From a virus, in IMG/VR virus record IMGVR_UViG_3300042359_000621: DNA of 64,000 nucleotides; one strand, 5' to 3'. Of the stretch, positions 1,775-32,767 are shown piece after piece (positions within the stretch are counted from its first letter, which is position 1; every line of letters begins with the position of its first letter). The notes under the pieces are model-generated. The model saw nothing but the letters and a program-made list of their open reading frames with translations. It was not told the origin of the DNA and did not search any database. The position numbers and the translations under genes were made by a program.

Positions 1775-3232
1775 ATGCTGAAATCAAAACCAAGTTCTTT
1801 GTATCGGGTTGACGAAGATGAAGTAGCAGTGGGAAGTGGTGGGGGAGGAACTGCACCAACCGAAGCCCAAATGAAGCTATTTATTGCCCAAACTTTGTCA
1901 ATGAACTTCGCCTATAACGCCCCAGTTGTTGTGCTTAAATTTGATGTTGCCGAGAATGGGAATATTACCGGATTATTTAAAGATGCGGCACGTCCACGGA
2001 TGTTTTCCTTTACCTTAGACGGGGAGTCCGTAACTTATAAGCCTTACAAACCTGGTAAAATGGACAGCTTGGAGTCAGATGAGGATGTCCAAGAATGGGA
2101 GGCATTTTCAGAAGGGTACGGGTTCCGCGTTGATGCGGGAGTAGGGGGCAAAAAAAAGCCTCAATGTGTTAAGCCCACCGCTTACAATTGTGGGAGTGCC
2201 TGTATTAATGTGATGAAGGACTGTAAGACTAACGCCAAAGATGCAGTTTCTAAGGATAGGCTTAAAAAGCTGAAAGGTGTGGCGATGTCTTATTACAAGG
2301 AATTTGAGAAACTTGATAAGACAGAAAGAGGCAGTGACAAACAGAAGGGATTTGGCGACAAAGCAAATCAAGCTAGTCGGAAAAGACTTGAATTGATGGA
2401 GCAATCCAAAAGCAAAAAGGGGGTAAAGTCGGACGAACCCCAGATCAAGCCCAAGGCAGAAAGTAAAAAGCCTTCTAGTCAAAAATCATCAACACAGAAA
2501 ACGGTAGAACCCGAAGTTAAAACCAAGCCAAACGTAGAACCTAAAAAGACGGAATCCAAGCCAAAGTCCAAAGCCAATCCCTTTTATAGTGACGAACCAA
2601 TTAAGGATTATGAGACTTTCAAGAAGGAAATCCCTAAAGAATTAGCCAGGCTTGATTTTGAATACAATCATGGAGGGGTGATTCCTATATCGCAAGTGAG
2701 AGAGGATTTAAAAGGGCGAGTTAATGAAAAGGATTTTGATGAATGGATGAAGCAGTCAATGTATGATGACGATAAAGATACTATTCGACTGATATCAAGT
2801 AACCCAGAAAATAGACCAGATCCAAAAGGGATAAAATCTCCTATGGGAGGAGTGTACGATCACATTTCTTTTAGAGATGAAGAGGCAGCGAAAAAAGCAA
2901 AAACAGAAATAAAGCGGAAGCCGGGTCAAATTACGGATCAAAAAGAGTTTGAAAAAATAGCTAATGAGGCATTTGATAAAATCAGCAAGGCAAAGGGAGG
3001 GGAAGATCTTATAGAGATATACAAAATTCGCCAGGAATTAGGGGATAAAGTGAGTCGAGGTGATTTCAATAACCTATTTAAAAAGATGACAGAATGGGGA
3101 GGGGATTTTCAGGCTGTTGGAGGATCTTTGTCTACCCTAGCAGAAAACGATATAGGTATTAAAGATTCTATTCCCGATGAACTGAATGGGCATGGAACAG
3201 TTAAAACTTATGTAAAACGGTCGAAAGAGTAA
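1775..3232 (+). CDS. modular virion-associated protein, paralog 1 (shared N-domain + 4-Cys motif + Lys-rich linker + unknown C-terminal domain)
   Basis: The N-terminal ~130 aa (AQMKLFIAQTLS..FAYNAPV..RPRMFSF..YKPY) is shared with ORFs 3315 and 8145. It carries the motif KKPQCVKPTAYNCGSACINVMKDCK. Confidence 0.6.
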   Translation: MLKSKPSSLYRVDEDEVAVGSGGGGTAPTEAQMKLFIAQTLSMNFAYNAPVVVLKFDVAENGNITGLFKDAARPRMFSFTLDGESVTYKPYKPGKMDSLESDEDVQEWEAFSEGYGFRVDAGVGGKKKPQCVKPTAYNCGSACINVMKDCKTNAKDAVSKDRLKKLKGVAMSYYKEFEKLDKTERGSDKQKGFGDKANQASRKRLELMEQSKSKKGVKSDEPQIKPKAESKKPSSQKSSTQKTVEPEVKTKPNVEPKKTESKPKSKANPFYSDEPIKDYETFKKEIPKELARLDFEYNHGGVIPISQVREDLKGRVNEKDFDEWMKQSMYDDDKDTIRLISSNPENRPDPKGIKSPMGGVYDHISFRDEEAAKKAKTEIKRKPGQITDQKEFEKIANEAFDKISKAKGGEDLIEIYKIRQELGDKVSRGDFNNLFKKMTEWGGDFQAVGGSLSTLAENDIGIKDSIPDELNGHGTVKTYVKRSKE

Positions 3233-3314
3233 CGTATGAAAAACCTCAATGCCAAAAATCCATCTCCTACAATTCTGGCAAGACCTGTATCAATGAGTCT
3301 AAAGCAAAAGGAAC

Positions 3315-4721
3315 ATGAGTATAGAGACTAAATCATCACCAACAAAAGCACAAATGCAAGCAGCGATCGCCCAGACTCTTGCTCTTCCTTTTGCCTATAA
3401 CTCCCCAGTGGATGTGATGGACTTTAAGGTAGATGGCACGGGTAAAATATCAGGGCGATTCAAGGATTCTGCCCGTCCGAGGGTGTTTGATTTTGAGTTA
3501 GATGGAAATACCGTCAACTTCAAACCTTACGCCCCAGGACGCATGGATTCGGGCGATGCAGTGGAACAATGGGAGGAGTTCTCTAGTGGCTACTCCTATC
3601 GGGTAGATGCGGGGATAGGAGGTAATAAGAAGCCACAGTGCGTGAAGCCAACAGCTTACAATTGTGGGAAAGCCTGTATTAACATCATGAAAAGCTGCAA
3701 GATTAAAACTGATGATCCCACAATAAAAGATAGGCTTAAAAAGCTAGAGGGAATTGGGAAAAATTATGCAAAAACGACTAAATCAACTAAACCCCAAAAG
3801 ACATCAGAATCAGTTAAAATAGCTAAAGTAGATCCCATAATTGAGGTAGAAAAGCCAACAGAAAAACCAGTAGAAAAACCAGTAGAAAAACAGGCTCAAG
3901 AAAAAACAAAACCCCTTTCTAATGCACAAATAAATGCCCAAACAATAGAAAAACTAGCAAAAAAAGCGGGAGTTGATATTTCTGAATTAGAAGAAACTGC
4001 AAAAAAAGCAGGGGCAACTGAAGCTCAATTATTGACATTAAAAAATGCTGTTGCTAAATATCAAAAAACCAAGGGTATAGTGTCTGGAAGTCAGATTAAA
4101 ACTACAAGGTCAGAAGAAGAAGGTTTGACAGGAGACGGGTCACACGAAGGGATGCCCAGAAATGCCCAGGAGTATTATAATCTTGCTACTAAAAACGGGA
4201 AGCAAATAACATTAAAAGAAGCTCAAGATACTGTTGAGGCTATTGAAGACTGGGCGGGAAGTGGGTACGAAGAAATAAGAAAAGATCAAAAAGCAGGACA
4301 ACTTAATGAACGGGCGACACTTATTGACAACTATATTAAAAATTTAACCCCATACAAAGGGGAAGTTTACAGAGGGATAACTTTTGACAACAAAAAAGAG
4401 ATGGATGATTGGTTAAAGGGTGACAAGGATGGATTGTTAGACAATCAAAACGCCCACGCATCCTGGAGTTCTGAACTTGAAGTTGCTAAAGATTTTGCAT
4501 CAGTAGAAGATGATCTAGATAGAGTGGGTGTTGTAATTAAGTCGGTCAATAACAAGTCAGGTGTGTCTATTTCCAATCTAAGTGATTTTGGGAAGACGGA
4601 ATCCGAGGTTATTGTTCCAAAGGATGCTAAACACAAAGTTAAAAGCGTTAGAGAAGAAGGGGGTGTTGTGTATGTAGAAGTAGAGGAAGTTGACCCCCCC
4701 CCTAATAGAAAAACCCGCTAA
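3315..4721 (+). CDS. modular protein, paralog 2, with a C-terminal mono-ADP-ribosyltransferase-like domain
   Basis: It has the shared N-domain and the Cys motif. The C-terminus carries an R-S-E triad pattern: GEVYRG, HASWSS and TESEVIVP. Confidence 0.7.
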   Translation: MSIETKSSPTKAQMQAAIAQTLALPFAYNSPVDVMDFKVDGTGKISGRFKDSARPRVFDFELDGNTVNFKPYAPGRMDSGDAVEQWEEFSSGYSYRVDAGIGGNKKPQCVKPTAYNCGKACINIMKSCKIKTDDPTIKDRLKKLEGIGKNYAKTTKSTKPQKTSESVKIAKVDPIIEVEKPTEKPVEKPVEKQAQEKTKPLSNAQINAQTIEKLAKKAGVDISELEETAKKAGATEAQLLTLKNAVAKYQKTKGIVSGSQIKTTRSEEEGLTGDGSHEGMPRNAQEYYNLATKNGKQITLKEAQDTVEAIEDWAGSGYEEIRKDQKAGQLNERATLIDNYIKNLTPYKGEVYRGITFDNKKEMDDWLKGDKDGLLDNQNAHASWSSELEVAKDFASVEDDLDRVGVVIKSVNNKSGVSISNLSDFGKTESEVIVPKDAKHKVKSVREEGGVVYVEVEEVDPPPNRKTR

Positions 4722-14500: not shown

Positions 14501-16563
14501 GGGATGATAAAGAAGGTCGGGAGGCTATTAACGCCGAGATAGGGAAACTCCAAGTTCAACGGCAAAAAACAATTAAGGACGGTTATGATCAAGAGCTTTC
14601 TACCCTTGAAAAACAACTCCAGAAAACCGTTGATTTAGTCAAAGAGGCTGAATTAATTAGACAAAGTGAAGTTCAGAAGTCGTTTAATGAATTTGGAGGT
14701 AATCAGAATTTAATTAACGAGGAAAATGTAAAAAACAACCTTAAGACCCTTGAGGCTGAATACAGTAACACGGTTAAAAAATTAAAGGAAACAAAATCTC
14801 AACCAGCACTATCAGATCCCCGACTAGAGACTGACAGACAAACTAAAATCAGAAAGTTAAGACAAGAACAACTCCAACAATCTTTGGGGATGTTGAAAGT
14901 CGAGAAAGAAGCCTGGGATGCTCATACTCAAACCGTTTTAGGGAATATTGCCAAAGAAAACAACGCCCAATTATTAAGCATAGAAAAGCAGATTAATAGC
15001 GGTAACGTACTGAGGGAATTAGAGGGGGCTGCAAGTGCTACCGATAAAGTTCAGGAGTTGCAAGTTCTACTTAGTCGAGAAAAAGACATTAATAAGCAAG
15101 CCGAGTTAAGGTTGTCCCTAGAGAAAGCTATCAGGGAAGAACGGGAAGCCTGGGGAGCATTGGGGATTGCCGAAATTGAAGCAATTAACAATCTTGAGTT
15201 AATCGCCTTAAAAAATCTGCTAAACCAAGGGAAAATTCTCAAGGAAGAATACGATCTAAAAATAGCACAGCAAGCCATAGAAACATTGCAAAAACGAATT
15301 AGTTTAGAGACGGATGTTGGCAAGAAAATCAAGCTCCAATTACAGCTAGTTGAAGAACAAGGGCGGTTGATTGATGCAAACGTAAGGAGATACGAAGCAG
15401 GGTTAAACAAGGAAGCACAAGCCTACGAGAACACCATTAAACGCCAGAATAATGAACTAGACAATCAGAGTCGGAAATTCGATATTCTCAATAAAGCCCT
15501 TCAGATGCGTTCGGAATTACAGGACGCACAGAAGGGGGTGTTTGACGCGGCTAATAGCTTTTACTCAGGGGAATTAGATGCTTTAGTCCAAGGGGAACGC
15601 TCCGAACGGAAGAAAAAACAACTTGCAGAATTAATCTCGGCTATTAAATTAAAATCAGCTATGCAACAAGCTGAGTTTGATAGACAAAGTCTGATATCCC
15701 AACAATTAATGAAAACCATCGAGTTTGAACGGGAGAAAATAGCTGCTAGAAGGGCGCTGAATGATGCGAAAATTGAAAAAAGAAAAGCTGATAATGCTCT
15801 TAAAGTAGCAAAAAAAGATCCTAGAACAACTCCAGAACAATTAGAGGAGCTGCAAACAGCAGCAGATATAGCAGAAGAGAACGTTGGCTACCAAGAGCAA
15901 AATTTAGGTTTATTACGGAAACAAGGCATTATCCAGTCAAAAGTTTTCAAACTCCAGAGAGAAGCGTTAGAATTCCGCAGTCAAGGGGCTATTCGTTCGG
16001 CACAGGTAGACTTAGCGAACAACACCAGTAACAGATCATTGAGACGACAGCGTTTTGCTGATATTACATCCAGTGTGCTTGATAGTTTTGGAGTAGACAG
16101 TATAAATGATCTAACGGGTCGAGCCGCGGCGACGGGAGAACAAGCCCTCAGAGAAAGTGGATTAAGGGGGGGTAGAAGACTTCCAGGGGGATTATCAGCA
16201 GAAGAACAGATGCGAAGCCTTAGAGGGGATTCTGGGGAGTTTTCTGGTGCAACAGGTAGCGCACCTTCTGAAATCTACAAACTAACTGGCGGACTCGGTG
16301 GGGGGTCGGCATCATCTCCTCAATTAACAGATCCTCTCAAACTTCCCTCTGCTTTGTCTCCCGTCCTATCCCCCATCGTCTCCCCAGACTTCTCACGGGC
16401 ATTGCAGCAAGCTACAGGGAAAGGTCAAACGACAATTTCTCCAACAATAAATATCCCGATTACCGTAATCGGCGATCAAAAAGTGGGAGAATCAATTAAG
16501 AAACAGGTTGAACCGAGGTTAGAAAATGTTATTCAACAAATGGTTAATCTCTCCCGTAATTAG
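11515..16563 (+). CDS. tail length tape-measure protein
   Basis: 1682 aa. The N-terminal third is rich in Gly/Ala hydrophobic segments. It is followed by about 900 aa of heptad-like coiled coil (E/K/Q-rich). It is the largest gene in the late block. Confidence 0.75.
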   Translation: MSSSSLSGVSITISASNQVSPVLRAIQGELLGLRQPLQVLDLFQSSFGGITSSIVQATTTIGFFGQGMSTLRGLVSNGPFKLLIGQTVELHGQLLSVASTMAATSKIISNGFEIKDPTQAILALNQPINDQIRQLRIDSIDLVGVTSKQLIPVFQQVAQGATPIGATLSDARSLTIDFAAALGTLQVPLFQSRQEIQSIFLGTIDMNSILAKSLGITNTMVAKWKAQGTLVQELTSRLSAFRAGNKLAAESFSGVTSNIQEMFELIGQRSGEKLLAPLTQSLNEVYKFLQTNLEMLVGESGKVTDQILRAGLAFQSIFKTVLGDVVTVFKDVPLFLFTSLANALEALNQGLGFTMTVLRPALNLFAALSSAVAPLASGFLVIALQVKALTVGVGILSKAFGILGGILLPGVGQIFPLLVANAGALGAAFTGLGGATIFSSVGMAQFSANLQQIPGAMTLMASATAALGNLLRTVGLAVVAFGAFKIIDEFILKNRGLMEVLGGVFGGLGEVVNILIGSWQSALITSTVVVGGLAIAFRAQLIPAVLSFISIQLAGVVTSSASAFVFLAGVLTSLGFSSMAITAGTAALHLQMLSASASLGTLTMGGLALAVKSVALSVATLLAPLAAVAAVVGGIGLVLYSQSLKDSTEATQELANRTEEYGDLAIDSLEKLSVAQKKQQESEKSGIRLTDEEYKNNQKLQNQAKLRIGLIEDQITALKEQEKTVKGDANKSNIQSQIGELEKLKTALAQASSNVVIAPKDLMVLGTALEQLKKKANEAMDAILKPSGDQEVFKKKASEVIEFNMALLEMGQTIDKDVITKLRQLANDTRLDQEVQRKAQETITKVIEQESKKRSDTIAKQKAEVESQQKNGEIGVRKSEKLITDLTIKELEERKSAQQEIQSEQRAFGNIEAARKAGEEIKKIESDITKAIAEERSKRNEELVKNFQEQQSIIEGYLAQGLTTEKNYNNQKSQLQIEGLDEQIRQQRNKLGKLAGDDKEGREAINAEIGKLQVQRQKTIKDGYDQELSTLEKQLQKTVDLVKEAELIRQSEVQKSFNEFGGNQNLINEENVKNNLKTLEAEYSNTVKKLKETKSQPALSDPRLETDRQTKIRKLRQEQLQQSLGMLKVEKEAWDAHTQTVLGNIAKENNAQLLSIEKQINSGNVLRELEGAASATDKVQELQVLLSREKDINKQAELRLSLEKAIREEREAWGALGIAEIEAINNLELIALKNLLNQGKILKEEYDLKIAQQAIETLQKRISLETDVGKKIKLQLQLVEEQGRLIDANVRRYEAGLNKEAQAYENTIKRQNNELDNQSRKFDILNKALQMRSELQDAQKGVFDAANSFYSGELDALVQGERSERKKKQLAELISAIKLKSAMQQAEFDRQSLISQQLMKTIEFEREKIAARRALNDAKIEKRKADNALKVAKKDPRTTPEQLEELQTAADIAEENVGYQEQNLGLLRKQGIIQSKVFKLQREALEFRSQGAIRSAQVDLANNTSNRSLRRQRFADITSSVLDSFGVDSINDLTGRAAATGEQALRESGLRGGRRLPGGLSAEEQMRSLRGDSGEFSGATGSAPSEIYKLTGGLGGGSASSPQLTDPLKLPSALSPVLSPIVSPDFSRALQQATGKGQTTISPTINIPITVIGDQKVGESIKKQVEPRLENVIQQMVNLSRN

Positions 16564-16769
16564 TAGAGCCAATGGCATTCCCCATGGTGTTGTTTTGCCC
16601 CGTGAGTCTGAAGCTGAATGTGATAGCAAAAAGGGTAAATTTTCAGCGTCTATTCATAATCAGCAACCCTGGGAAAAAGAGTATACATGGACTAAGATCA
16701 AGGGATGGTGGATTGATAATTAATTATGACTATTAAGATTAATTATAGACTGAAAATATATACAATATT

Positions 16770-16803
16770 AAACCCCGTAAAACATTGTTATTTTACGGGG
16801 TTT
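16770..16803. terminator. bidirectional intrinsic terminator
   Basis: Hairpin aaaccccgtaaaa..ttttacggggttt flanked by A and T runs, between convergent genes. Confidence 0.6.
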
Positions 16804-16830
16804 AAATAGTCTGAAACTATTGATTTATGT

Positions 16831-17613
16831 TCACTTGACGCGATCGCCAATAGCTCGAATCAATTTAGTGGCGTACCATTTCAACTGAGGGATATTTTTA
16901 CCCCCGTTAGTAGAGTTTAAAATCAACTTACCCAACCCCTCACTACTGGATGTGAGTTGATATTGAATACGCCCCTTCGCGTCACGGGTCAACACTTGCA
17001 AGCCCAACTCACACAGCATTTTATTGAGGTCGCGGGGTGTCATTTTAACGCCACTCGCTTCAAACATCGAACAAACCTCTGTGACCGTTGACAGGGTTTC
17101 AGGGAGTTCGATACTGGATACAATTAACTTCTGAGCATCCAGATAAATCTCACGGTTTGTGGTGTCAATTTTGGAGGCGAGTGTAACCAGCCCCCAAGAC
17201 TCCACGACGGGAGATTCTAACCCGCATAATGAGAGGGCTTTTTTAGCGTATTCCAAAGCGTCAAACGATGACGGTGAGGTGATAGCTCTTTGATGGGTGT
17301 AACTGCCAGTTTCTCGGATGGAAGGTAAGACTTCCTCAAAAACCCAGTCCTGAAACTTTTCAGCAGCCGGGAGACTTGACCGCATGATTAATTGATAAAG
17401 TCCAGGCTCACTGATAAAATTCGGGCTTTTACCCGGTTTACCTAAATCTAACTGCTGGTTATATTTACCTGAAACGTTATCCTGCAATGCTTTTGATGGA
17501 TTTGCGTACCCCAAAGCCTTAGCAACTTGTGAAGCATTGAACCAAGGTTGACCGTCAATGACTATGACATCAAGGGAGTTTTGCTCGAAAACAAAAACTG
17601 ATATACTTTGCAT
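16831..17613 (-). CDS. Bro-N domain (BRO / antirepressor family) protein
   Basis: The N-terminus VIDGQPWFNASQVAKALGYANPSKALQDNV...FISEPGLYQLIMRS..AEKFQDWVFEEVLPSIRETG matches the Bro-N pattern. Confidence 0.75.
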   Translation of the reverse strand: MQSISVFVFEQNSLDVIVIDGQPWFNASQVAKALGYANPSKALQDNVSGKYNQQLDLGKPGKSPNFISEPGLYQLIMRSSLPAAEKFQDWVFEEVLPSIRETGSYTHQRAITSPSSFDALEYAKKALSLCGLESPVVESWGLVTLASKIDTTNREIYLDAQKLIVSSIELPETLSTVTEVCSMFEASGVKMTPRDLNKMLCELGLQVLTRDAKGRIQYQLTSSSEGLGKLILNSTNGGKNIPQLKWYATKLIRAIGDRVK

Positions 17614-17690
17614 TAGTTGACCTGTGTATTAGGTTGACTCATCCCCCGGACATTTACAGTGTTGCGGGGGTATTCCTTATTATATCGGAT
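17614..17690 (-). promoter_or_regulatory. conserved 5' leader with hairpin (copy 1; copy 2 at 32668-32740)
   Basis: About 75 nt directly upstream of the Bro-N start is near-identical in layout to the leader of the KilA-N gene. It contains the hairpin cccccgcaaca..ccggggg. Confidence 0.45.
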
Positions 17691-17739
17691 TTTAAAGCTG
17701 GTAATTGGAATTAAGCCCAACCCGAATCCAGTCACAAAA

Positions 17740-17766
17740 AGAGGGAGTCGAAACCCCCTCTTTTTT
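17740..17766. terminator. orphan intrinsic terminator-like hairpin
   Basis: agagggagtcgaaaccccctc followed by T6 on the + strand. No annotated + strand gene lies upstream of it. Confidence 0.5.
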
Positions 17767-17795
17767 GGTGATTACCTATTTTTAAAATTGCTAAC
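17767..17795 (+). repeat. degenerate sense copy of the CRISPR repeat 3' two-thirds
   Basis: ggtgattacctatttttaaaattgctaac compared with repeat 15 ggtgattacctgttttaaggattgaaac gives about 23 of 28 positions with one indel. Confidence 0.4.
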
Positions 17796-17932
17796 CATAT
17801 CTGGCTAGAGAATATTCCCTCTTCATCGCCTAATCGTTAATCCTTTCGGCTCCAAGGGCAGCTTTTGGCTTGCCGATCTAAACATCGGTGATTCCATTAT
17901 ATACAACTATAATTGGAAATGTCAACATATAC

Positions 17933-17948
17933 GTTTCAATTTCTTAAA
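17933..17948 (+). other. anti-repeat-like segment overlapping the RBS region of the Cas12-like gene
   Basis: gtttcaatttcttaaa is the reverse complement of the repeat tail tttaagaattgaaac (variant in repeats 10-12), except for one extra t. Confidence 0.35.
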
Positions 17949-17953
17949 TAGGT

Positions 17954-19627
17954 ATGTCTAATTTTAGCGATAATGTGCGAACAAAGGAGTTTAAGCTCAT
18001 TCTATCCTCGGAACAAGAGCGAACCCTAGAAGATTGGATGCTAGTCTGTAAGTGGGTTTGGAATCGTTCACTGGGATTGATAGAGGAATTTAACGAGTGG
18101 AACCCCTACGATAGAATATCAAAGTCTAACGTCCCCGCTACTCCCCTGCAACGATATGATCGCAAGCTCAAGCAATGGGTACGAATTGAGATCCCAGATT
18201 GGAAGATGGGGATTGAACGAGTTGAGAAGAAAAGGGGATTCATCCATCCCGTTGCTATTGATGAGAATAGTCCGGTTATTGACTCACTAGATTCTAAAAA
18301 ATCAGTGCTATACGGATTTCTAAAAATGTTTGGACATCAACACCACAAAGATCGGATCGTGACTTATTTAATTAGAGGTGAGGAACGAAAAGTCAATTTC
18401 ACCGACTGCCCTGCAAAATTTATCCAAGGGGTAGCGCATGAACTCTCGAAGGCTTGGGAGGGATTTCTGGCGGGTCGCCATAGTCGTCCCCGATTCAAAA
18501 CAGCCAAAGATAAGGTGATGACTTTGATCCACTATAACGCCAGGGATCTAGGGGTTAAGGATGGTAAAATTAATATTCCTAAGTTGGGTTATATTGAAGT
18601 AATTGGGCTTGATAAGCGGTGGTATGGTTGCGATTTTAACCCGATGAAAATTTGCAAAAAAGCGTCGGGGTGGTATATACAATTAACTGCGTCCGTCCCT
18701 GTCAAACAAGCCAAGAAGACAGGGTTATGTTGTGGAATTGACCCCGGACATCAGTTTGTTATGGCATTGGATAATGGTCACACTATTGAGGCTGCACAAC
18801 CATTGAAACGTGGGTTAAAACGTTTAAGAAAAATGCAGCAACAATTATCTCGCAAGTATCGAATGAACGGGGGGAAGACTAAGAACTGGGAGAAACTTAA
18901 CAATAAGATTGCTAAACTTCACGAAAAGATCGCCCGTCACCGTCGATCTTTTAACCATTGGCATTCGACTAATTTAATTAATTGGTTTGATGTGATTTTT
19001 GTAGAAGATTATAAACCCGCCAATGTTTACCGAAAAGCTAAAGCTAAGGCAAAACTAGATACAGAGGGGGCTCCAATGGTAGCTGCAAATGGTACGGCTA
19101 TCTATGAGAAGAACAATCAGAAACGCAAGCGGGGAAGTAATAGAACAGGAAATGATGTGGCTATCGGTCAGGCTATTGATCTATTAGAAACCAAGGGAAA
19201 GGAACACGGAAAGTTAGTAATTCGGGTCGATAATTGGGGGACTACTTTATGTTGTGCAAAGTGTGGACACCAAGAGAAGAAAAAACTATCACAACGAACT
19301 CACAAATGCTCTAATTGTGGCTATACTGTGGCTCGTGATGTTAACTCAGGACAGAATATTAAACTGAAAGGTTTGGCTCAAATGGCAATCAATCAAGGTG
19401 TGGAGTTATCCGATAATTTCTGGTATAAATTCTTGATTGATAAAAATTCGGCAACCCCTAGCGGTTCTAAGAAGGCGACCAAGAAAAAGCCTAAAAAGTC
19501 AGACACCGTAATCATTCCAGATGATTTGTTTAAAAATGGGGTTCACGAATTTTTGATCGGTGAAACTGCCAAAACTCGTGCTATAATAAATGAAATGAGC
19601 TTAGGTAATTTCGATAGAAACGCCTGA
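17954..19627 (+). CDS. compact TnpB-like type V CRISPR effector candidate (Cas12-like, 557 aa)
   Basis: TnpB-type layout with an N-terminus KEFKLILSSEQERTLEDWMLVCKWVWNRSL, then RPRFKTAKD and IPKLGYIEV. RuvC-I is GIDPG (D263, 18740-18742). RuvC-II is IFVEDY (E351, 19004-19006). Zn ribbon is CAKCG..CSNCG. RuvC-III is ARDVNSGQNI (D462, 19337-19339). Its stop lies 19 nt before the first CRISPR repeat. Confidence 0.8.
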   Translation: MSNFSDNVRTKEFKLILSSEQERTLEDWMLVCKWVWNRSLGLIEEFNEWNPYDRISKSNVPATPLQRYDRKLKQWVRIEIPDWKMGIERVEKKRGFIHPVAIDENSPVIDSLDSKKSVLYGFLKMFGHQHHKDRIVTYLIRGEERKVNFTDCPAKFIQGVAHELSKAWEGFLAGRHSRPRFKTAKDKVMTLIHYNARDLGVKDGKINIPKLGYIEVIGLDKRWYGCDFNPMKICKKASGWYIQLTASVPVKQAKKTGLCCGIDPGHQFVMALDNGHTIEAAQPLKRGLKRLRKMQQQLSRKYRMNGGKTKNWEKLNNKIAKLHEKIARHRRSFNHWHSTNLINWFDVIFVEDYKPANVYRKAKAKAKLDTEGAPMVAANGTAIYEKNNQKRKRGSNRTGNDVAIGQAIDLLETKGKEHGKLVIRVDNWGTTLCCAKCGHQEKKKLSQRTHKCSNCGYTVARDVNSGQNIKLKGLAQMAINQGVELSDNFWYKFLIDKNSATPSGSKKATKKKPKKSDTVIIPDDLFKNGVHEFLIGETAKTRAIINEMSLGNFDRNA

Positions 19628-19646
19628 AACACTTGCGGATTAAGCT

Positions 19647-20817
19647 CTCGCAATAGGTGATTATCTGGTTTAAGGATTGAAACCTCCCTCCTGGGGTGTG
19701 TAGGATTGGTATTAATCCGACTCGCAATAGGTGATTATCTGGTTTAAGGATTGAAACTTATTGAATCCTGTGCGATCGCCACACTTTCGGGCTTTGATCT
19801 CGCAATAGGTGATTATCTGGTTTAAGGATTGAAACAGAAGATAATTTGAGTCCCCCCTTTACTTTTGAATTGATCTCGCAATAGGTGATTATCTGGTTTA
19901 AGGATTGAAACACAACGGCTCCCATATTGAGTTTCAAATACTTTTCCCTCGCAATAGGTGATTATCTGGTTTAAGGATTGAAACGCGACTGTTCAACACC
20001 GGAATTAAATATAATTCCCGCTCGCAATAGGTGATTATCTGGTTTAAGGATTGAAACTTTCCCATAACTTATCCGGCGGTTGCTGTTTAGAGAACTCGCA
20101 ATAGGTGATTATCTGGTTTAAGGATTGAAACTCAAAACCCATACACAGAGGGAGTGCCGGGTAAGTCGCTCGCAATAGGTGATTGCCTGTTTTAAGGATT
20201 GAAACAACGGGTGGGAATCCATTTTTATTAATGATTTAATCAAGCTCGCAATAGGTGATTATCTGGTTTAAGGATTGAAACCAGAAAATCAGATTGATTG
20301 TATCATAATTGACCCGTTAGATTTCTCGCAATAGGTGATTGCCTGTTTTAAGAATTGAAACATCCATGTTGAATAGTTGGATTGCTTGACAACAATACTC
20401 GCAATAGGTGATTGCCTGTTTTAAGAATTGAAACTTTAACCCTTCTACAGCATCACTGGATGATATTAAGCCTCGCAATAGGTGATTGCCTGTTTTAAGA
20501 ATTGAAACTATATCAGCGATATGGCCGGGCTTTATGGGTATTGCTTGGAGCACTCGCAATAGGTGATTGCCTGTTTTAAGGATTGAAACATATCGAGATT
20601 AATTCATTTGAAAATACTCCCATTGCTGCTCGCAATAGGTGATTGCCTGTTTTAAGGATTGAAACGATTGAATTTGAGCTACCATGTCATTAAGTCCTTT
20701 AACTATTTCTCGCAATAGGTGATTACCTGTTTTAAGGATTGAAACGATTGGAGTCGGTTGGGAAGCCTTGCAAACGTTACCTCGCAATAGGTGATTGCCT
20801 GTTTTAAGGATTGAAAC
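19647..20817 (+). CRISPR. CRISPR array, 16 x 37-bp repeats and 15 spacers
   Basis: The repeat is CTCGCAATAGGTGATTATCTGGTTTAAGGATTGAAAC in repeats 1-7 and 9. The variant ..GATTGCCTGTTTTAAG(G/A)ATTGAAAC occurs in repeats 8 and 10-16. Spacer lengths are 37, 41, 39, 36, 36, 37, 37, 39, 43, 36, 37, 44, 39, 43 and 35 nt, and all spacers are unique. Confidence 0.95.
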
Positions 20818-20825
20818 AGGAGATA

Positions 20826-20852
20826 GGGGTATTTTTCAACCCCGTTGTTTTT
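20826..20852 (+). terminator. weak intrinsic terminator after the last repeat
   Basis: A 5-bp stem ggggt/acccc with an 8-nt loop is followed by gttgttttta. This supports + strand transcription of the array. Confidence 0.35.
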
Positions 20853-21273
20853 ACCGACCAAGGGACGCTCTAGCATCACTCAGTATCTTGTTCATCTGGG
20901 CTTCCGTAATATCAAAGTCGGGTGTGTTGGGTCTGATGCGCCCGTTGCTGAATGCTTTCCCTGCGTAGCTGCGAATTACGGGGATTGTAGCGGGTCGGGG
21001 TCGGGTTTGGGTTGTTACAGGTCGCAAGGTTTTGTATGCGTTCATCCACTTATTAGTCTTGACCGTTGCCCAATTCCCGTTAAGGACTACACCCTTCTCG
21101 GTACGGATGAAATGGACTGTTTGGCCGTTTTCCATTAATTCAGTCCAACCATAGCGGATTTCAATCGTCCCATCTGGGTGAACCATTTTGATTGTGTCGA
21201 TTGTGATTCCGTCAAACGTTGAGGTGTAGCTTGAGATGATTTCGGTTGTGATTGTGGCGATTTGAGCTACCAT
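20851..21273 (-). CDS. hypothetical protein (140 aa)
   Basis: Clean ORF. Its start region is echoed by CRISPR spacers 14 and 15. No motif recognised. Confidence 0.55.
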   Translation of the reverse strand: MVAQIATITTEIISSYTSTFDGITIDTIKMVHPDGTIEIRYGWTELMENGQTVHFIRTEKGVVLNGNWATVKTNKWMNAYKTLRPVTTQTRPRPATIPVIRSYAGKAFSNGRIRPNTPDFDITEAQMNKILSDARASLGR

Positions 21274-21343
21274 GATATTTAGATCCTTAGTTGGGTTGGG
21301 TGGAGTCGGTTGGGTGTCCCTGGTAAGTTGCTCGACCGACTTT

Positions 21344-21480
21344 GTTTTACTTCTATGTTTTACATCTTAACCGATTTGTTTTACTTTGTCTAGTGGTTTT
21401 ACTTTAGTATTACTTATAGGTTTATACTGTTTTACAGAATTACAATCAATTTTACTTATATGTCTTACTATTCGTTTTAC
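21344..21480. repeat. iteron-like cluster of GTTTTAC heptamers
   Basis: Exact GTTTTAC occurs at 21344, 21357, 21378, 21396, 21429 and 21474. Variants occur at 21407, 21449 and 21462. The cluster sits in a divergent intergenic region. Confidence 0.6.
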
Positions 21481-21522
21481 ATCGTGCTACACTTGAAGGT
21501 AAGACACAAAAGGAGTAAACCG

Positions 21523-32178: not shown

Positions 32179-32667
32179 CTAATTCCCTGACTCAATAGAC
32201 CAACTAGAATAAGCCTCGATATCGTAGAAGCGGTCGTCTATTAAGGTTTGATCCTCAATATCCCTATAGTTTTCTGCCATGATTTCAAACATCCGAGCAA
32301 ACGGGTCAATGTCTAGGGAAGTTTTGCCGTCCGTCATCAGAACGTAGGAATGGGCATCAAGCCAGTTGGCAAGTTCTGGACTAATCCATCGGGCAACCTT
32401 AACCGCCAGTAATGGATGTCCCCATGTTCCCTGCTCCCTATTGTCTGAAAATTTCCCTTTCACAACCTCTAAGAGTGATTCCTCAGATGTGAGGGAATTA
32501 GACAGGGCATCCATTTCAGCCTTTGAGGATTTCAGTCGTAACCAGTTATCAAGTCTTGTGTTGTAGGCTTTGCACATTTGAGTCAGGTTCACATACCCAT
32601 CTGACTCCCGAACAGAAATCTTAATCCCTTCAAACTGAAGTGGAACAATTTTGCTATTATGATTCAT
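32179..32667 (-). CDS. KilA-N domain protein
   Basis: FEGIKISVRESDGYVNLTQMCKAYNTRLDNWLRLKSSKAEMDALS matches the KilA-N pattern. Confidence 0.75.
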   Translation of the reverse strand: MNHNSKIVPLQFEGIKISVRESDGYVNLTQMCKAYNTRLDNWLRLKSSKAEMDALSNSLTSEESLLEVVKGKFSDNREQGTWGHPLLAVKVARWISPELANWLDAHSYVLMTDGKTSLDIDPFARMFEIMAENYRDIEDQTLIDDRFYDIEAYSSWSIESGN

Positions 32668-32740
32668 AGTTGACCTGCTGTATAGGTTGGCTCACGTCCC
32701 CGAATGTTTCCGCATTGCGGGGACACTTATTATTATAACA
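32668..32740 (-). promoter_or_regulatory. conserved 5' leader with hairpin (copy 2)
   Basis: agttgacctgctgtataggttggctcacgtccccgaatgtttccgcattgcgggg aligns with 17614-17690. Confidence 0.45.
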
Positions 32741-32767
32741 ATTTTATTAATAGAAATAGTCGATATT

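What the first reader, a model, noticed from the sequence alone, without database searches (positions are those of the whole stretch)
17614..17953. The noncoding 340 nt upstream of the effector gene contains repeat-like and anti-repeat-like pieces plus an orphan terminator
Three elements are visible in this region:
- (1) 17740-17766 is a strong hairpin followed by T6 on the + strand, with no + strand gene upstream. It could be the end of a small RNA.
- (2) 17767-17795, ggtgattacctatttttaaaattgctaac, is a sense-orientation degenerate copy of the last 28 nt of the CRISPR repeat (about 23 of 28 positions). Weaker repeat-like fragments occur near 17676-17699 and 17887-17897.
- (3) 17933-17948, gtttcaatttcttaaa, lies 6-21 nt before the ATG. 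It is the reverse complement of the repeat tail of repeats 10-12, except for a 1-nt bulge.

In a + strand transcript, element 3 could base-pair with pre-crRNA repeats. That would fit a tracrRNA-type anti-repeat. Alternatively, it could act as a feedback device in which crRNA repeats occlude the effector's ribosome-binding region.

The degenerate solitary repeat followed by unique sequence is also the layout described for Cas-regulating mini-arrays (CreR/CreA type).
Basis: partly seen in the sequence, partly recalled or inferred. Interest (0 to 1): 0.6.

Follow-up and report, generated by a model that had tools for sequence, protein, structure and literature searches.

The report
Divergent tracrRNA gene of phage CRISPR
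The 340 bases upstream of this cyanophage's small TnpB-like CRISPR nuclease most likely encode, on the opposite strand, the roughly 155-nt helper RNA (tracrRNA) that pairs with the CRISPR repeats, giving a testable guide-RNA design for a nuclease group (V-U2/C2c8) with no described guide architecture.

Summary
All three main elements exist at the stated coordinates and are far beyond chance.

- **A minus-strand RNA.** A perfect sigma-70 promoter (-35 at 17925-17920, -10 at 17901-17896) and the "orphan" hairpin read as a minus-strand terminator (17766-17736) bracket an RNA of about 155 nt.
- **Anti-repeat.** Its 3' part (17790-17767) is the reverse complement of the "degenerate repeat", so it is an anti-repeat.
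- **Conservation.** A covariance model finds this RNA, always divergent from the effector, in 36 other loci (36-99% effector identity).
- **Structure.** 20 of 22 base pairs show compensatory changes. G-U pairs outnumber A-C cells 44 to 8, which fixes the strand.
- **Co-variation with the repeat.** The anti-repeat tracks each locus's own repeat. A 5' hairpin loop co-varies with the last four repeat bases (GUUU/AAAC, CUUU/AAAG, CUUC/GAAG).
- **Arrangement.** More distant relatives carry the anti-repeat downstream of the effector, on its strand.
- **CreA-type mini-array reading:** rejected.
- **Element 3:** a real, mostly conserved inverted repeat copy abutting the start codon. Its regulatory role is untested.
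- **17614-17694:** belongs to the neighbouring Bro-N gene's leader.
- **Missing:** strand-specific expression data.

This is a new member of a known kind.

The parts
17896..17925 (-). Promoter of the small RNA: -35 TTGACA (17925-17920), 18-nt spacer, -10 TATAAT (17901-17896). Predicted start near 17889.
   Evidence: 12 of 12 consensus match. A TTGACA -35 with a -10-like hexamer is seen on the same strand in the loci with 36-44% identical effectors: L027, L028, L029, L030, L075.
17736..17889 (-). Predicted tracrRNA, about 155 nt (scaffold, anti-repeat, terminator).
   Evidence: Covariance model R1 scores 164.5 bits at 17738-17895(-) and finds homologues in 36 other loci. 93.4% of cells are paired against 69% in shuffles, and 20 of 22 pairs have compensatory changes. 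G-U cells 44, A-C cells 8.
17873..17888 (-). 5' hairpin H1 (stem 17888-17884 with 17877-17873). Its 6-nt loop 17883-17878 begins GUUU and is a candidate second anti-repeat for the last 4 bases (AAAC) of the crRNA repeat.
   Evidence: Folds at -6.4 kcal/mol, z -2.3. The loop co-varies with the repeat end across loci: GUUU with AAAC, CUUU with AAAG (L027-L029), CUUC with GAAG (L072).
17791..17808 (-). Hairpin H5, directly 5' of the anti-repeat (7-bp stem, GAUA loop).
   Evidence: All 6 modelled pairs show compensatory changes, with 5 G-U cells at one pair (helix 4).
17767..17790 (-). Pairs with about 24 nt of the repeat core.
   Evidence: Duplex with the window's repeats is -22.5 kcal/mol (8 effector-proximal repeats) to -29.7 (distal variants). 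Across 13 loci, own pairs average -21.2 against -13.0 for non-own, and the own repeat ranks first in 10 of 13. All four transition differences from the repeat give G-U, not A-C, in this orientation.
17736..17766 (-). Intrinsic terminator of the small RNA (stem 17760-17754 with 17747-17741, U5 at 17740-17736). Symmetric, so it may also stop + strand transcription.
   Evidence: A GC hairpin directly after the anti-repeat is present in every homologous locus (helix 5).
17933..17953 (+). Element 3: inverted copy of the repeat's 3' part, lying between the small RNA's -35 box and the effector ATG. It probably sits in the effector mRNA leader.
   Evidence: Unique outside the array. Predicted duplex with the repeat is -17.0 kcal/mol against -8.8 +/- 2.1 for shuffles (0 of 200) and spans -22 to +2 of the start codon. 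A comparable element occurs in 9 of 12 lineages.
17908..17913 (+). Candidate -10 box (TATAAT) of the effector promoter, back to back with the small RNA's promoter.
   Evidence: Read from the sequence. A + strand -10-like hexamer next to the minus-strand -35 recurs in L018, L027, L028 and L029. Inferred, not tested.
17614..17694 (-). Leader of the neighbouring Bro-N gene (16831-17613, minus strand). Not part of the CRISPR module.
   Evidence: 73% identical over 82 nt to 32667-32746. This flank is replaced by unrelated sequence in L003, L016, L018 and others.
17954..19627 (+). Effector: 557-aa TnpB-like, C2c8-like (type V-U2) protein.
   Evidence: Pfam OrfB_IS605 and Cas12f1-like TNB. NCBIfam V_cas_c2c8 at 296 bits, E 4e-88, below the 350-bit cut-off. 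Nearest solved relative after an AI-designed nuclease is ISDra2 TnpB. D263, E324 and D462 are invariant in the family alignment.
19647..20817 (+). CRISPR array: 16 repeats of 37 nt in four sequence variants.

Best explanation
The spacer between the Bro-N gene and the effector holds a tracrRNA gene transcribed away from the effector.

**Predicted RNA.** A sigma-70-type promoter on the minus strand starts an RNA near 17889. The RNA then runs through:
- a 5' hairpin whose loop begins GUUU;
- a conserved multi-helix scaffold;
- a hairpin with a GAUA loop;
- a 24-nt anti-repeat (17790-17767);
- an intrinsic terminator (17766-17736).

**Proposed mechanism (inferred).**
- The array is transcribed on the + strand with or after the effector gene.
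- The anti-repeat pairs with the core of each repeat.
- The 5' hairpin loop pairs with the last four bases of the repeat, next to the spacer.
- The effector binds this two-RNA guide, as Cas12f, Cas12k and other tracrRNA-dependent type V effectors do.

**What is shown and what is not.** Shown by computation are the promoter and terminator signals, conservation, compensatory base changes, strand asymmetry, and co-variation of both anti-repeat parts with the local repeat. Transcription from the minus strand, the RNA's exact ends, binding to the effector and any requirement for interference are all inferred.

**Element 3.** This is a second, inverted copy of the repeat's 3' part in the likely effector mRNA leader. 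I treat it as an accessory feature of unknown role.
For: - **Promoter and terminator.** The minus-strand promoter matches 12 of 12 consensus positions, and the hairpin is called as a minus-strand terminator. The hairpin is more stable on the minus strand, -18.3 against -15.4 kcal/mol.
- **Conservation.** Covariance model R1 finds the RNA upstream of and divergent from the effector in 30 close loci. It also finds it in L027-L030, L036 and L075, where the effector is 36-44% identical. L036 and L075 were not in the training set and score E 1e-10 and 6e-13.
- **Structure.** 93.4% of cells are paired against 69% in shuffles. 20 of 22 pairs have changes on both sides, and 0 of 500 shuffles reach any measure. 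Slid controls give 42-58% paired.
- **Strand.** There are 44 G-U cells against 8 A-C cells, and 30 against 2 in the scaffold helices. The RNAalifold consensus is -18.2 kcal/mol on the minus strand against -8.0 on the plus strand.
- **Anti-repeat.** Own-repeat duplexes average -21.2 kcal/mol against -13.0 for non-own. The own repeat ranks first in 10 of 13 loci.
- **Second contact.** The 5' hairpin loop co-varies with the repeat's last four bases in three states.
- **Relatives.** In loci with about 30% identical effectors, the best anti-repeat lies on the effector's strand between effector and array. In L072 the model itself hits that position. This fits one tracrRNA lineage that was relocated in the window's clade.
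- **RNA libraries.** Metatranscriptome contigs from two studies cover 17734-17864 at 2.5-5 times the word depth of the contigs over the adjacent effector ORF start. This is weak evidence.
Against: - There is no strand-specific or end-resolved expression evidence. The RNA runs are held only as contigs, which cannot show strand, ends or level. The contig boundary at 17734 coincides with a strain-variation breakpoint.
- The terminator is symmetric. In L024/L026 its T-run is better on the + strand.
- The eight effector-proximal repeats pair less well (-22.5 kcal/mol) than the distal variants (about -29.5).
- The effector scores below NCBIfam's C2c8 cut-off.
- The alignment used for pair counts was fitted to the model, which favours the structure. 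The independent MAFFT/RNAalifold run gave the same helices.
Confidence: 0.85

Rival explanations
1. A small + strand RNA ends at the hairpin. The degenerate repeat at 17767-17795 plus the following unique sequence is a CreA/CreR-type mini-array that guides the effector to a regulatory target.
For: The hairpin also works as a + strand terminator, with T6 and -15.4 kcal/mol. The degenerate repeat is in sense orientation.
Against: - No conserved + strand promoter lies upstream of the hairpin, and that flank differs between loci.
- The would-be guide sequence is a set of helices kept by compensatory changes.
- G-U pairs outnumber A-C cells 44 to 8 in the minus-strand reading.
- The + strand consensus fold is much weaker.
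- A conserved promoter faces the other way.
Confidence: 0.03
2. Element 3 is a working anti-repeat in the effector mRNA leader. crRNA or pre-crRNA repeats, possibly together with the effector, pair from about -22 to +2 of the start codon. This would tune effector translation or mRNA stability to guide supply. It could hold in addition to the tracrRNA explanation.
For: - Element 3 is unique outside the array.
- Its predicted duplex is -17.0 kcal/mol against -8.8 +/- 2.1 for shuffles.
- An inverted repeat copy next to or near the ATG occurs in 9 of 12 lineages and follows the local repeat in L028, L029 and L030.
- No Shine-Dalgarno sequence is evident in the window.
- A + strand -10 box upstream would place the element in the leader.
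Against: - The element is absent or displaced in L022, L027 and L075.
- Point differences among near-identical phages are tolerated.
- The effector's transcription start is not known.
- The element could be a leftover of the rearrangement that moved the tracrRNA gene. With the anti-repeat template it forms a 17-nt inverted pair flanking the cassette.
- No locus shows the cassette flipped.
Confidence: 0.2
3. The minus-strand RNA is real and structured but is not a tracrRNA. It could be a regulatory small RNA, or a leader of the Bro-N gene that only happens to contain a repeat-derived piece.
For: The Bro-N gene lies downstream on the same strand, and phage CL131 has the same gene order.
Against: - The RNA is followed by a terminator.
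- In other loci it is followed by unrelated genes, some on the other strand.
- It travels with the effector, not with Bro-N.
- Two separate parts of it co-vary with the CRISPR repeat.
Confidence: 0.05
4. The repeat-like pieces are decaying relics of array rearrangements with no present function.
For: Both pieces are degenerate. CRISPR loci often carry stray repeats.
Against: Position, promoter, terminator and structure are conserved down to 36% effector identity. Compensatory changes are present and the pieces co-vary with the local repeat.
Confidence: 0.04

Closest known systems
tracrRNAs of miniature type V effectors (Cas12f / V-F, into which V-U2 to V-U4 were merged: PMC11013384, bioRxiv 10.1101/2023.02.03.527072)
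   Same: A long structured RNA of about 150 nt encoded next to a TnpB-like effector and its array. Its main anti-repeat lies at the 3' end. From my own knowledge of Cas12f guide structures, there is also a second short pairing to the repeat bases next to the spacer.
   Different: Here the gene lies upstream of the effector on the opposite strand, with its own promoter and terminator. No Rfam family matches it. The effector is closer in sequence to ISDra2 TnpB than to solved Cas12f proteins.
Cas12k (V-K) tracrRNA of cyanobacterial CAST elements
   Same: Cyanobacterial setting. The repeats are 37 nt with the same conserved ends (GAAAG/GAAAC), which the literature notes are shared among V-K, V-U2, I-D and type III arrays (bioRxiv 10.1101/2021.02.06.429022). 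Both use a long tracrRNA.
   Different: From my own knowledge, the Cas12k tracrRNA lies between cas12k and the array on the same strand. Cas12k lacks nuclease residues and works with Tn7-like transposition genes. Here D263, E324 and D462 are conserved and the carrier is a phage.
Type V-U2 locus of cyanophage vB_AphaS-CL131 (PMC6293099)
   Same: A phage-borne TnpB-like effector and array without adaptation genes. A Bro-N antirepressor gene lies divergently upstream.
   Different: The effector is only 32% identical. The paper reported no tracrRNA. In CL131 the best anti-repeat lies downstream of the effector on its strand (L078 3277-3316), not upstream.
omega RNA of IS200/IS605 TnpB (ISDra2)
   Same: Apart from an AI-designed nuclease, ISDra2 TnpB is the effector's nearest solved relative. 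Its guide scaffold precedes the guide.
   Different: From my own knowledge, the omega RNA is one molecule that overlaps the 3' end of tnpB on the same strand. Here the scaffold is a separate, divergently transcribed RNA and the guides come from an array.
CreA/CreR-type Cas-regulating RNAs (degenerate repeat plus partial spacer)
   Same: A solitary degenerate repeat close to a cas gene promoter.
   Different: The sequence beside the degenerate repeat is a conserved folded scaffold on the other strand, not a guide.

Membership tests
tracrRNA (type V, Cas12f/Cas12k-like) | Encoded in the CRISPR-cas locus, outside the array, with a stretch complementary to the repeat | tested here: met
   17790-17767(-) pairs with about 24 nt of the repeat at -22.5 to -29.7 kcal/mol. 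Its template is the only non-array match to the repeat core in 64 kb.
tracrRNA (type V, Cas12f/Cas12k-like) | The anti-repeat changes together with the cognate repeat in related loci | tested here: met
   Own duplexes average -21.2 against -13.0 kcal/mol for non-own, and the own repeat ranks first in 10 of 13 loci. The 5' loop and repeat end co-vary in three states.
tracrRNA (type V, Cas12f/Cas12k-like) | Conserved structured scaffold | tested here: met
   20 of 22 pairs have compensatory changes, 93.4% of cells are paired, and 0 of 500 shuffles reach this. The same helices come from an independent alignment.
tracrRNA (type V, Cas12f/Cas12k-like) | Independent transcript with defined ends | tested here: inconclusive
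   The promoter and terminator are predicted and conserved. RNA-library contigs cover the region at raised depth, but they cannot show strand or ends.
tracrRNA (type V, Cas12f/Cas12k-like) | Binds the effector with crRNA and is needed for guide maturation or interference | not testable with these tools
   Needs biochemistry or genetics.
Type V-U2 (C2c8) / V-F3 CRISPR-Cas | Effector matches the C2c8 family model | tested here: inconclusive
   NCBIfam V_cas_c2c8 is the best hit, at 296.4 bits and E 4e-88, but below the curated 350-bit cut-off. The effector is 36% identical to a protein that NCBI names C2c8.
Type V-U2 (C2c8) / V-F3 CRISPR-Cas | TnpB-like effector with an acidic RuvC triad and zinc ribbon beside a CRISPR array, with no adaptation genes nearby | tested here: met
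   Pfam domains. D263, E324, D462 and four cysteines are invariant. The array begins 19 nt after the stop codon. No cas1 or cas2 was seen among the neighbouring ORFs tested, but not every ORF in the window was scanned.
CreA/CreR-type regulatory mini-array | Degenerate repeat followed, on the same strand, by a guide-like sequence | tested here: not met
   The following sequence forms helices that are kept by compensatory changes. G-U pairs are specific to the opposite strand. The + strand consensus fold is weak.
Any curated Rfam family | Score at or above the family's gathering threshold | tested here: not met
   The best hits are RAGATH-14 at 24 bits (threshold 149) and PrrB/RsmZ at 18.5 bits (threshold 44), both with E about 0.4.

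The most novel reading that the evidence does not exclude
The effector mRNA leader (17933-17953) mimics the tracrRNA anti-repeat. CRISPR repeats in pre-crRNA or crRNA would pair with it across the start codon. The phage would thereby couple effector synthesis to guide supply. The two inverted repeat copies flanking the tracrRNA cassette would also record how a downstream tracrRNA gene was moved upstream and inverted.
Probability: 0.2. Interest if true: 0.7.

Novelty: new member of a known kind. Interest (0 to 1): 0.5.

Why it matters
- **The gap.** V-U2/C2c8 effectors are among the TnpB-like CRISPR proteins still labelled "uncharacterised". The one cultured-phage example was reported to have no tracrRNA, which led its authors to suggest a regulatory role (PMC6293099).
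- **What this adds.** The prediction is concrete and conserved: the RNA's ends, a two-part anti-repeat and a scaffold. That makes reconstitution of this compact nuclease directly testable.
- **Evolution.** The same RNA lineage sits downstream of the effector in some relatives and upstream, inverted, in others. This bears on how split guide RNAs evolved from transposon RNAs.
- **Phage biology.** Earlier notes from this scan report that the array targets sibling phages. I did not check that claim here.
- **Literature.** I found no description of this RNA in the paper library that I searched. Closed-access work cannot be excluded.

Tried and rejected
- **Rfam.** The scan of 16500-21500 found nothing near any threshold.
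- **Whole genome.** None is held for this window.
- **Genome collection scan.** It gave only one locus, a misbinned copy of the phage.
- **RNA runs.** They are kept as contigs only, so they give no strand, no ends and no usable level. The sharp contig end at 17734 coincides with a strain-variation branch and is not a transcript end.
- **Invertible-cassette idea.** The tracrRNA cassette is flanked by inverted repeat copies, but all 30 additional loci have it in the same orientation. There is no support for active flipping.
- **Spacer 10 similarity.** The start of spacer 10 resembles the sequence beside element 3 (27 nt, 85%, E 0.17). I judged this to be chance.
- **CL131 upstream region.** The model's best hit is a weak 15.8 bits inside the Bro-N gene. 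I did not accept it.
- **Short upstream flanks.** L074 and L077 gave no model hit.
- I re-ran it with the repeats derived in code.

Full report
**Setting.** The finding lies between a minus-strand Bro-N gene (16831-17613) and a 557-aa + strand ORF (17954-19627). That ORF is followed 19 nt later by a 16-repeat CRISPR array (19647-20817).
- The ORF has the TnpB/Cas12f domains.
- Its best NCBIfam match is the type V C2c8 (V-U2) model: 296 bits, E 4e-88, below the 350-bit cut-off.
- Apart from an AI-designed nuclease, its nearest solved relative is ISDra2 TnpB.
- D263, E324, D462 and four cysteines are invariant among relatives.
- No whole genome is held for the window.
- Nineteen IMG/VR viral contigs carry effectors 77-99% identical, so the locus is phage-borne.

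**Observation.** All three main elements are real.
- The hairpin at 17736-17766 folds well on both strands, and better on the minus strand (-18.3 against -15.4 kcal/mol).
- 17767-17790 is the only site outside the array that matches the repeat core with up to 3 mismatches. Chance expectation is 0.00.
- 17933-17948 is the only non-array match to the inverted repeat tail. Chance expectation is 0.00.
- The left quarter of the spacer (17614-17694) is a leader shared with 32667-32746. It belongs to the Bro-N side, because other loci replace it with unrelated sequence.

**What it is.**
- The promoter scan found a 12-of-12 sigma-70 promoter on the minus strand (TTGACA 17925-17920, 18-nt spacer, TATAAT 17901-17896). 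It called the hairpin as a minus-strand terminator.
- Together these define an RNA of about 155 nt (about 17889 to 17736). Its last 24 nt before the terminator are the complement of the "degenerate repeat", that is, an anti-repeat.
- All four transition differences between that copy and the repeat give G-U rather than A-C in the anti-repeat:repeat duplex.

**Comparative test: loci and model hits.** I collected homologous loci from viral contigs, metagenomes and assemblies.
- Repeats differ between lineages.
- Every locus of the window's clade has, on the strand opposite the effector, an anti-repeat directly followed by a GC hairpin.
- Most also have a TTGACA -35 box with a -10-like hexamer on that strand. 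L021, L024 and L036 have only weaker or rearranged promoter signals.
- An alignment of 15 such RNAs gave a consensus of four helices plus the terminator.
- A covariance model built from that alignment found the RNA in 36 other loci. Two were outside the training set: L075 (E 6e-13) and L036 (E 1e-10). All hits were divergent from the effector.

**Comparative test: pairing and strand.**
- On the model alignment, 93.4% of cells pair against 69% in shuffles. 20 of 22 pairs show changes on both sides. No shuffle out of 500 reaches any measure. Slid partners give 42-58% paired.
- G-U cells outnumber A-C cells 44 to 8, and 30 to 2 in the scaffold helices.
- The + strand consensus fold is much weaker, -8.0 against -18.2 kcal/mol.
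- These results fix the functional strand as minus.

**Link to the repeats.**
- Duplexes between each locus's anti-repeat and its own repeat average -21.2 kcal/mol, against -13.0 for non-own combinations. The own repeat ranks first in 10 of 13 loci.
- A second contact is suggested by the 6-nt loop of the 5' hairpin. It begins GUUU where repeats end AAAC. It begins CUUU where they end AAAG (L027-L029). It reads CUUC where the repeat ends GAAG (L072).
- From my own knowledge, Cas12f-type guides also use a long 3' anti-repeat plus a short contact with the repeat bases next to the spacer.

**Relatives with another layout.**
- In loci with effectors about 30% identical (L039, L041, L064, L065, L071), the best anti-repeat lies on the effector's strand between effector and array.
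- In L072/L076 the model itself hits that position (E 1e-4).
- Cyanophage CL131 has the same Bro-N/effector/array order. Its best anti-repeat is also downstream, although the paper describing it reported no tracrRNA.
- The window's clade therefore appears to have moved and inverted the gene.

**Expression.** Metatranscriptome contigs from several studies hold the locus. In two studies the piece 17734-17864 has 2.5-5 times the word depth of the contigs over the adjacent effector ORF start. Contigs cannot show strand, ends or level. The end at 17734 coincides with a strain branch. I count this only as weak support.

**Element 3.**
- Read on the + strand, 17933-17953 is nearly the same sequence as the tracrRNA anti-repeat (15 of 17 positions), preceded by GTTT. 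It could therefore pair with the repeat's last 21 nt or so, up to the start codon. The predicted duplex is -17.0 kcal/mol against -8.8 +/- 2.1 in shuffles.
- A + strand TATAAT at 17908-17913, back to back with the minus-strand promoter, would place it in the effector mRNA leader. A similar + strand -10 box beside the minus-strand -35 recurs in L018 and L027-L029.
- An inverted repeat copy in this position occurs in 9 of 12 lineages and follows the local repeat in L028-L030.
- It is missing or displaced in L022, L027 and L075. No locus has the cassette flipped.
- Its role, whether feedback on effector synthesis or a scar of the rearrangement, stays open.

**Rejected reading.** The CreA/CreR-type reading fails. 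The sequence after the degenerate repeat on the + strand is the folded scaffold, not a guide.

**Literature.** The library I searched places V-U2 within or near V-F (Cas12f3) and states that Cas12f needs a tracrRNA. It notes shared repeat ends among cyanobacterial V-K, V-U2, I-D and type III arrays. I found no description of a V-U2/C2c8 tracrRNA or of this upstream divergent layout. Closed-access work cannot be excluded.

**Verdict.** The region is best explained as a divergently transcribed tracrRNA gene (confidence 0.85), with a conserved but unexplained inverted repeat copy in the effector leader. It is a new member of a known kind, of moderate interest.

Noticed in passing
window 19590-19646: The last 35 nt or so of the effector ORF plus its stop codon resemble a degenerate repeat ending TGAAAC. 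A short hairpin (CTTnnnnnnTAAG type) then sits before the first repeat. It is conserved with sequence changes in L018, L022, L024 and L026. It could be a leader element or a 'repeat 0'.
   Followed up: partly
window 19647-20817: The tracrRNA anti-repeat pairs better with the distal repeat variants (-29.3 to -29.7 kcal/mol) than with the eight effector-proximal repeats (-22.5). The two halves of the array may differ in age or origin.
   Followed up: partly
window 17900-17909, compared with L006 around 1690-1700: An inner segment of about 10 nt in the shared promoter core is inverted between the window and the phages whose effector is 94% identical. Both versions keep -10-like boxes on both strands.
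   Followed up: no
L021 3913-3990: The promoter core (TTGACA with its neighbouring bases) is duplicated in tandem and inverted relative to the window, so that it faces the effector.
   Followed up: no
L022 3915-4000: An insertion of about 87 nt at the ancestral start codon carries a second, nearly full-length inverted repeat copy, a canonical AAGGAG ribosome-binding site and a new ATG.
   Followed up: partly
L078 (phage CL131, MG209611) 3196-3450: A candidate anti-repeat, and hence a tracrRNA, lies between the effector stop codon and the array on the effector's strand (best duplex at 3277-3316). The paper describing this phage reported no tracrRNA.
   Followed up: partly
L028, L029, L030, about 30 nt upstream of the small RNA's -35 box: In these distant loci a perfect short palindromic hairpin lies between the inverted repeat copy and the promoter. 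It would sit in the effector leader. Its function is unknown.
   Followed up: no
L024/L026 just upstream of the ATG (L024 2899-2948): A nearly full-length sense-orientation repeat copy lies directly before the start codon. The repeat of this lineage has reverse-complementary ends of about 11 nt each, so both strands of that copy can pair with the repeat.
   Followed up: no
window 17614-17694 and 32667-32746: An 82-nt segment is shared at 73% identity. It includes a GC hairpin at 17642-17669 and lies upstream of the Bro-N gene.
   Followed up: partly
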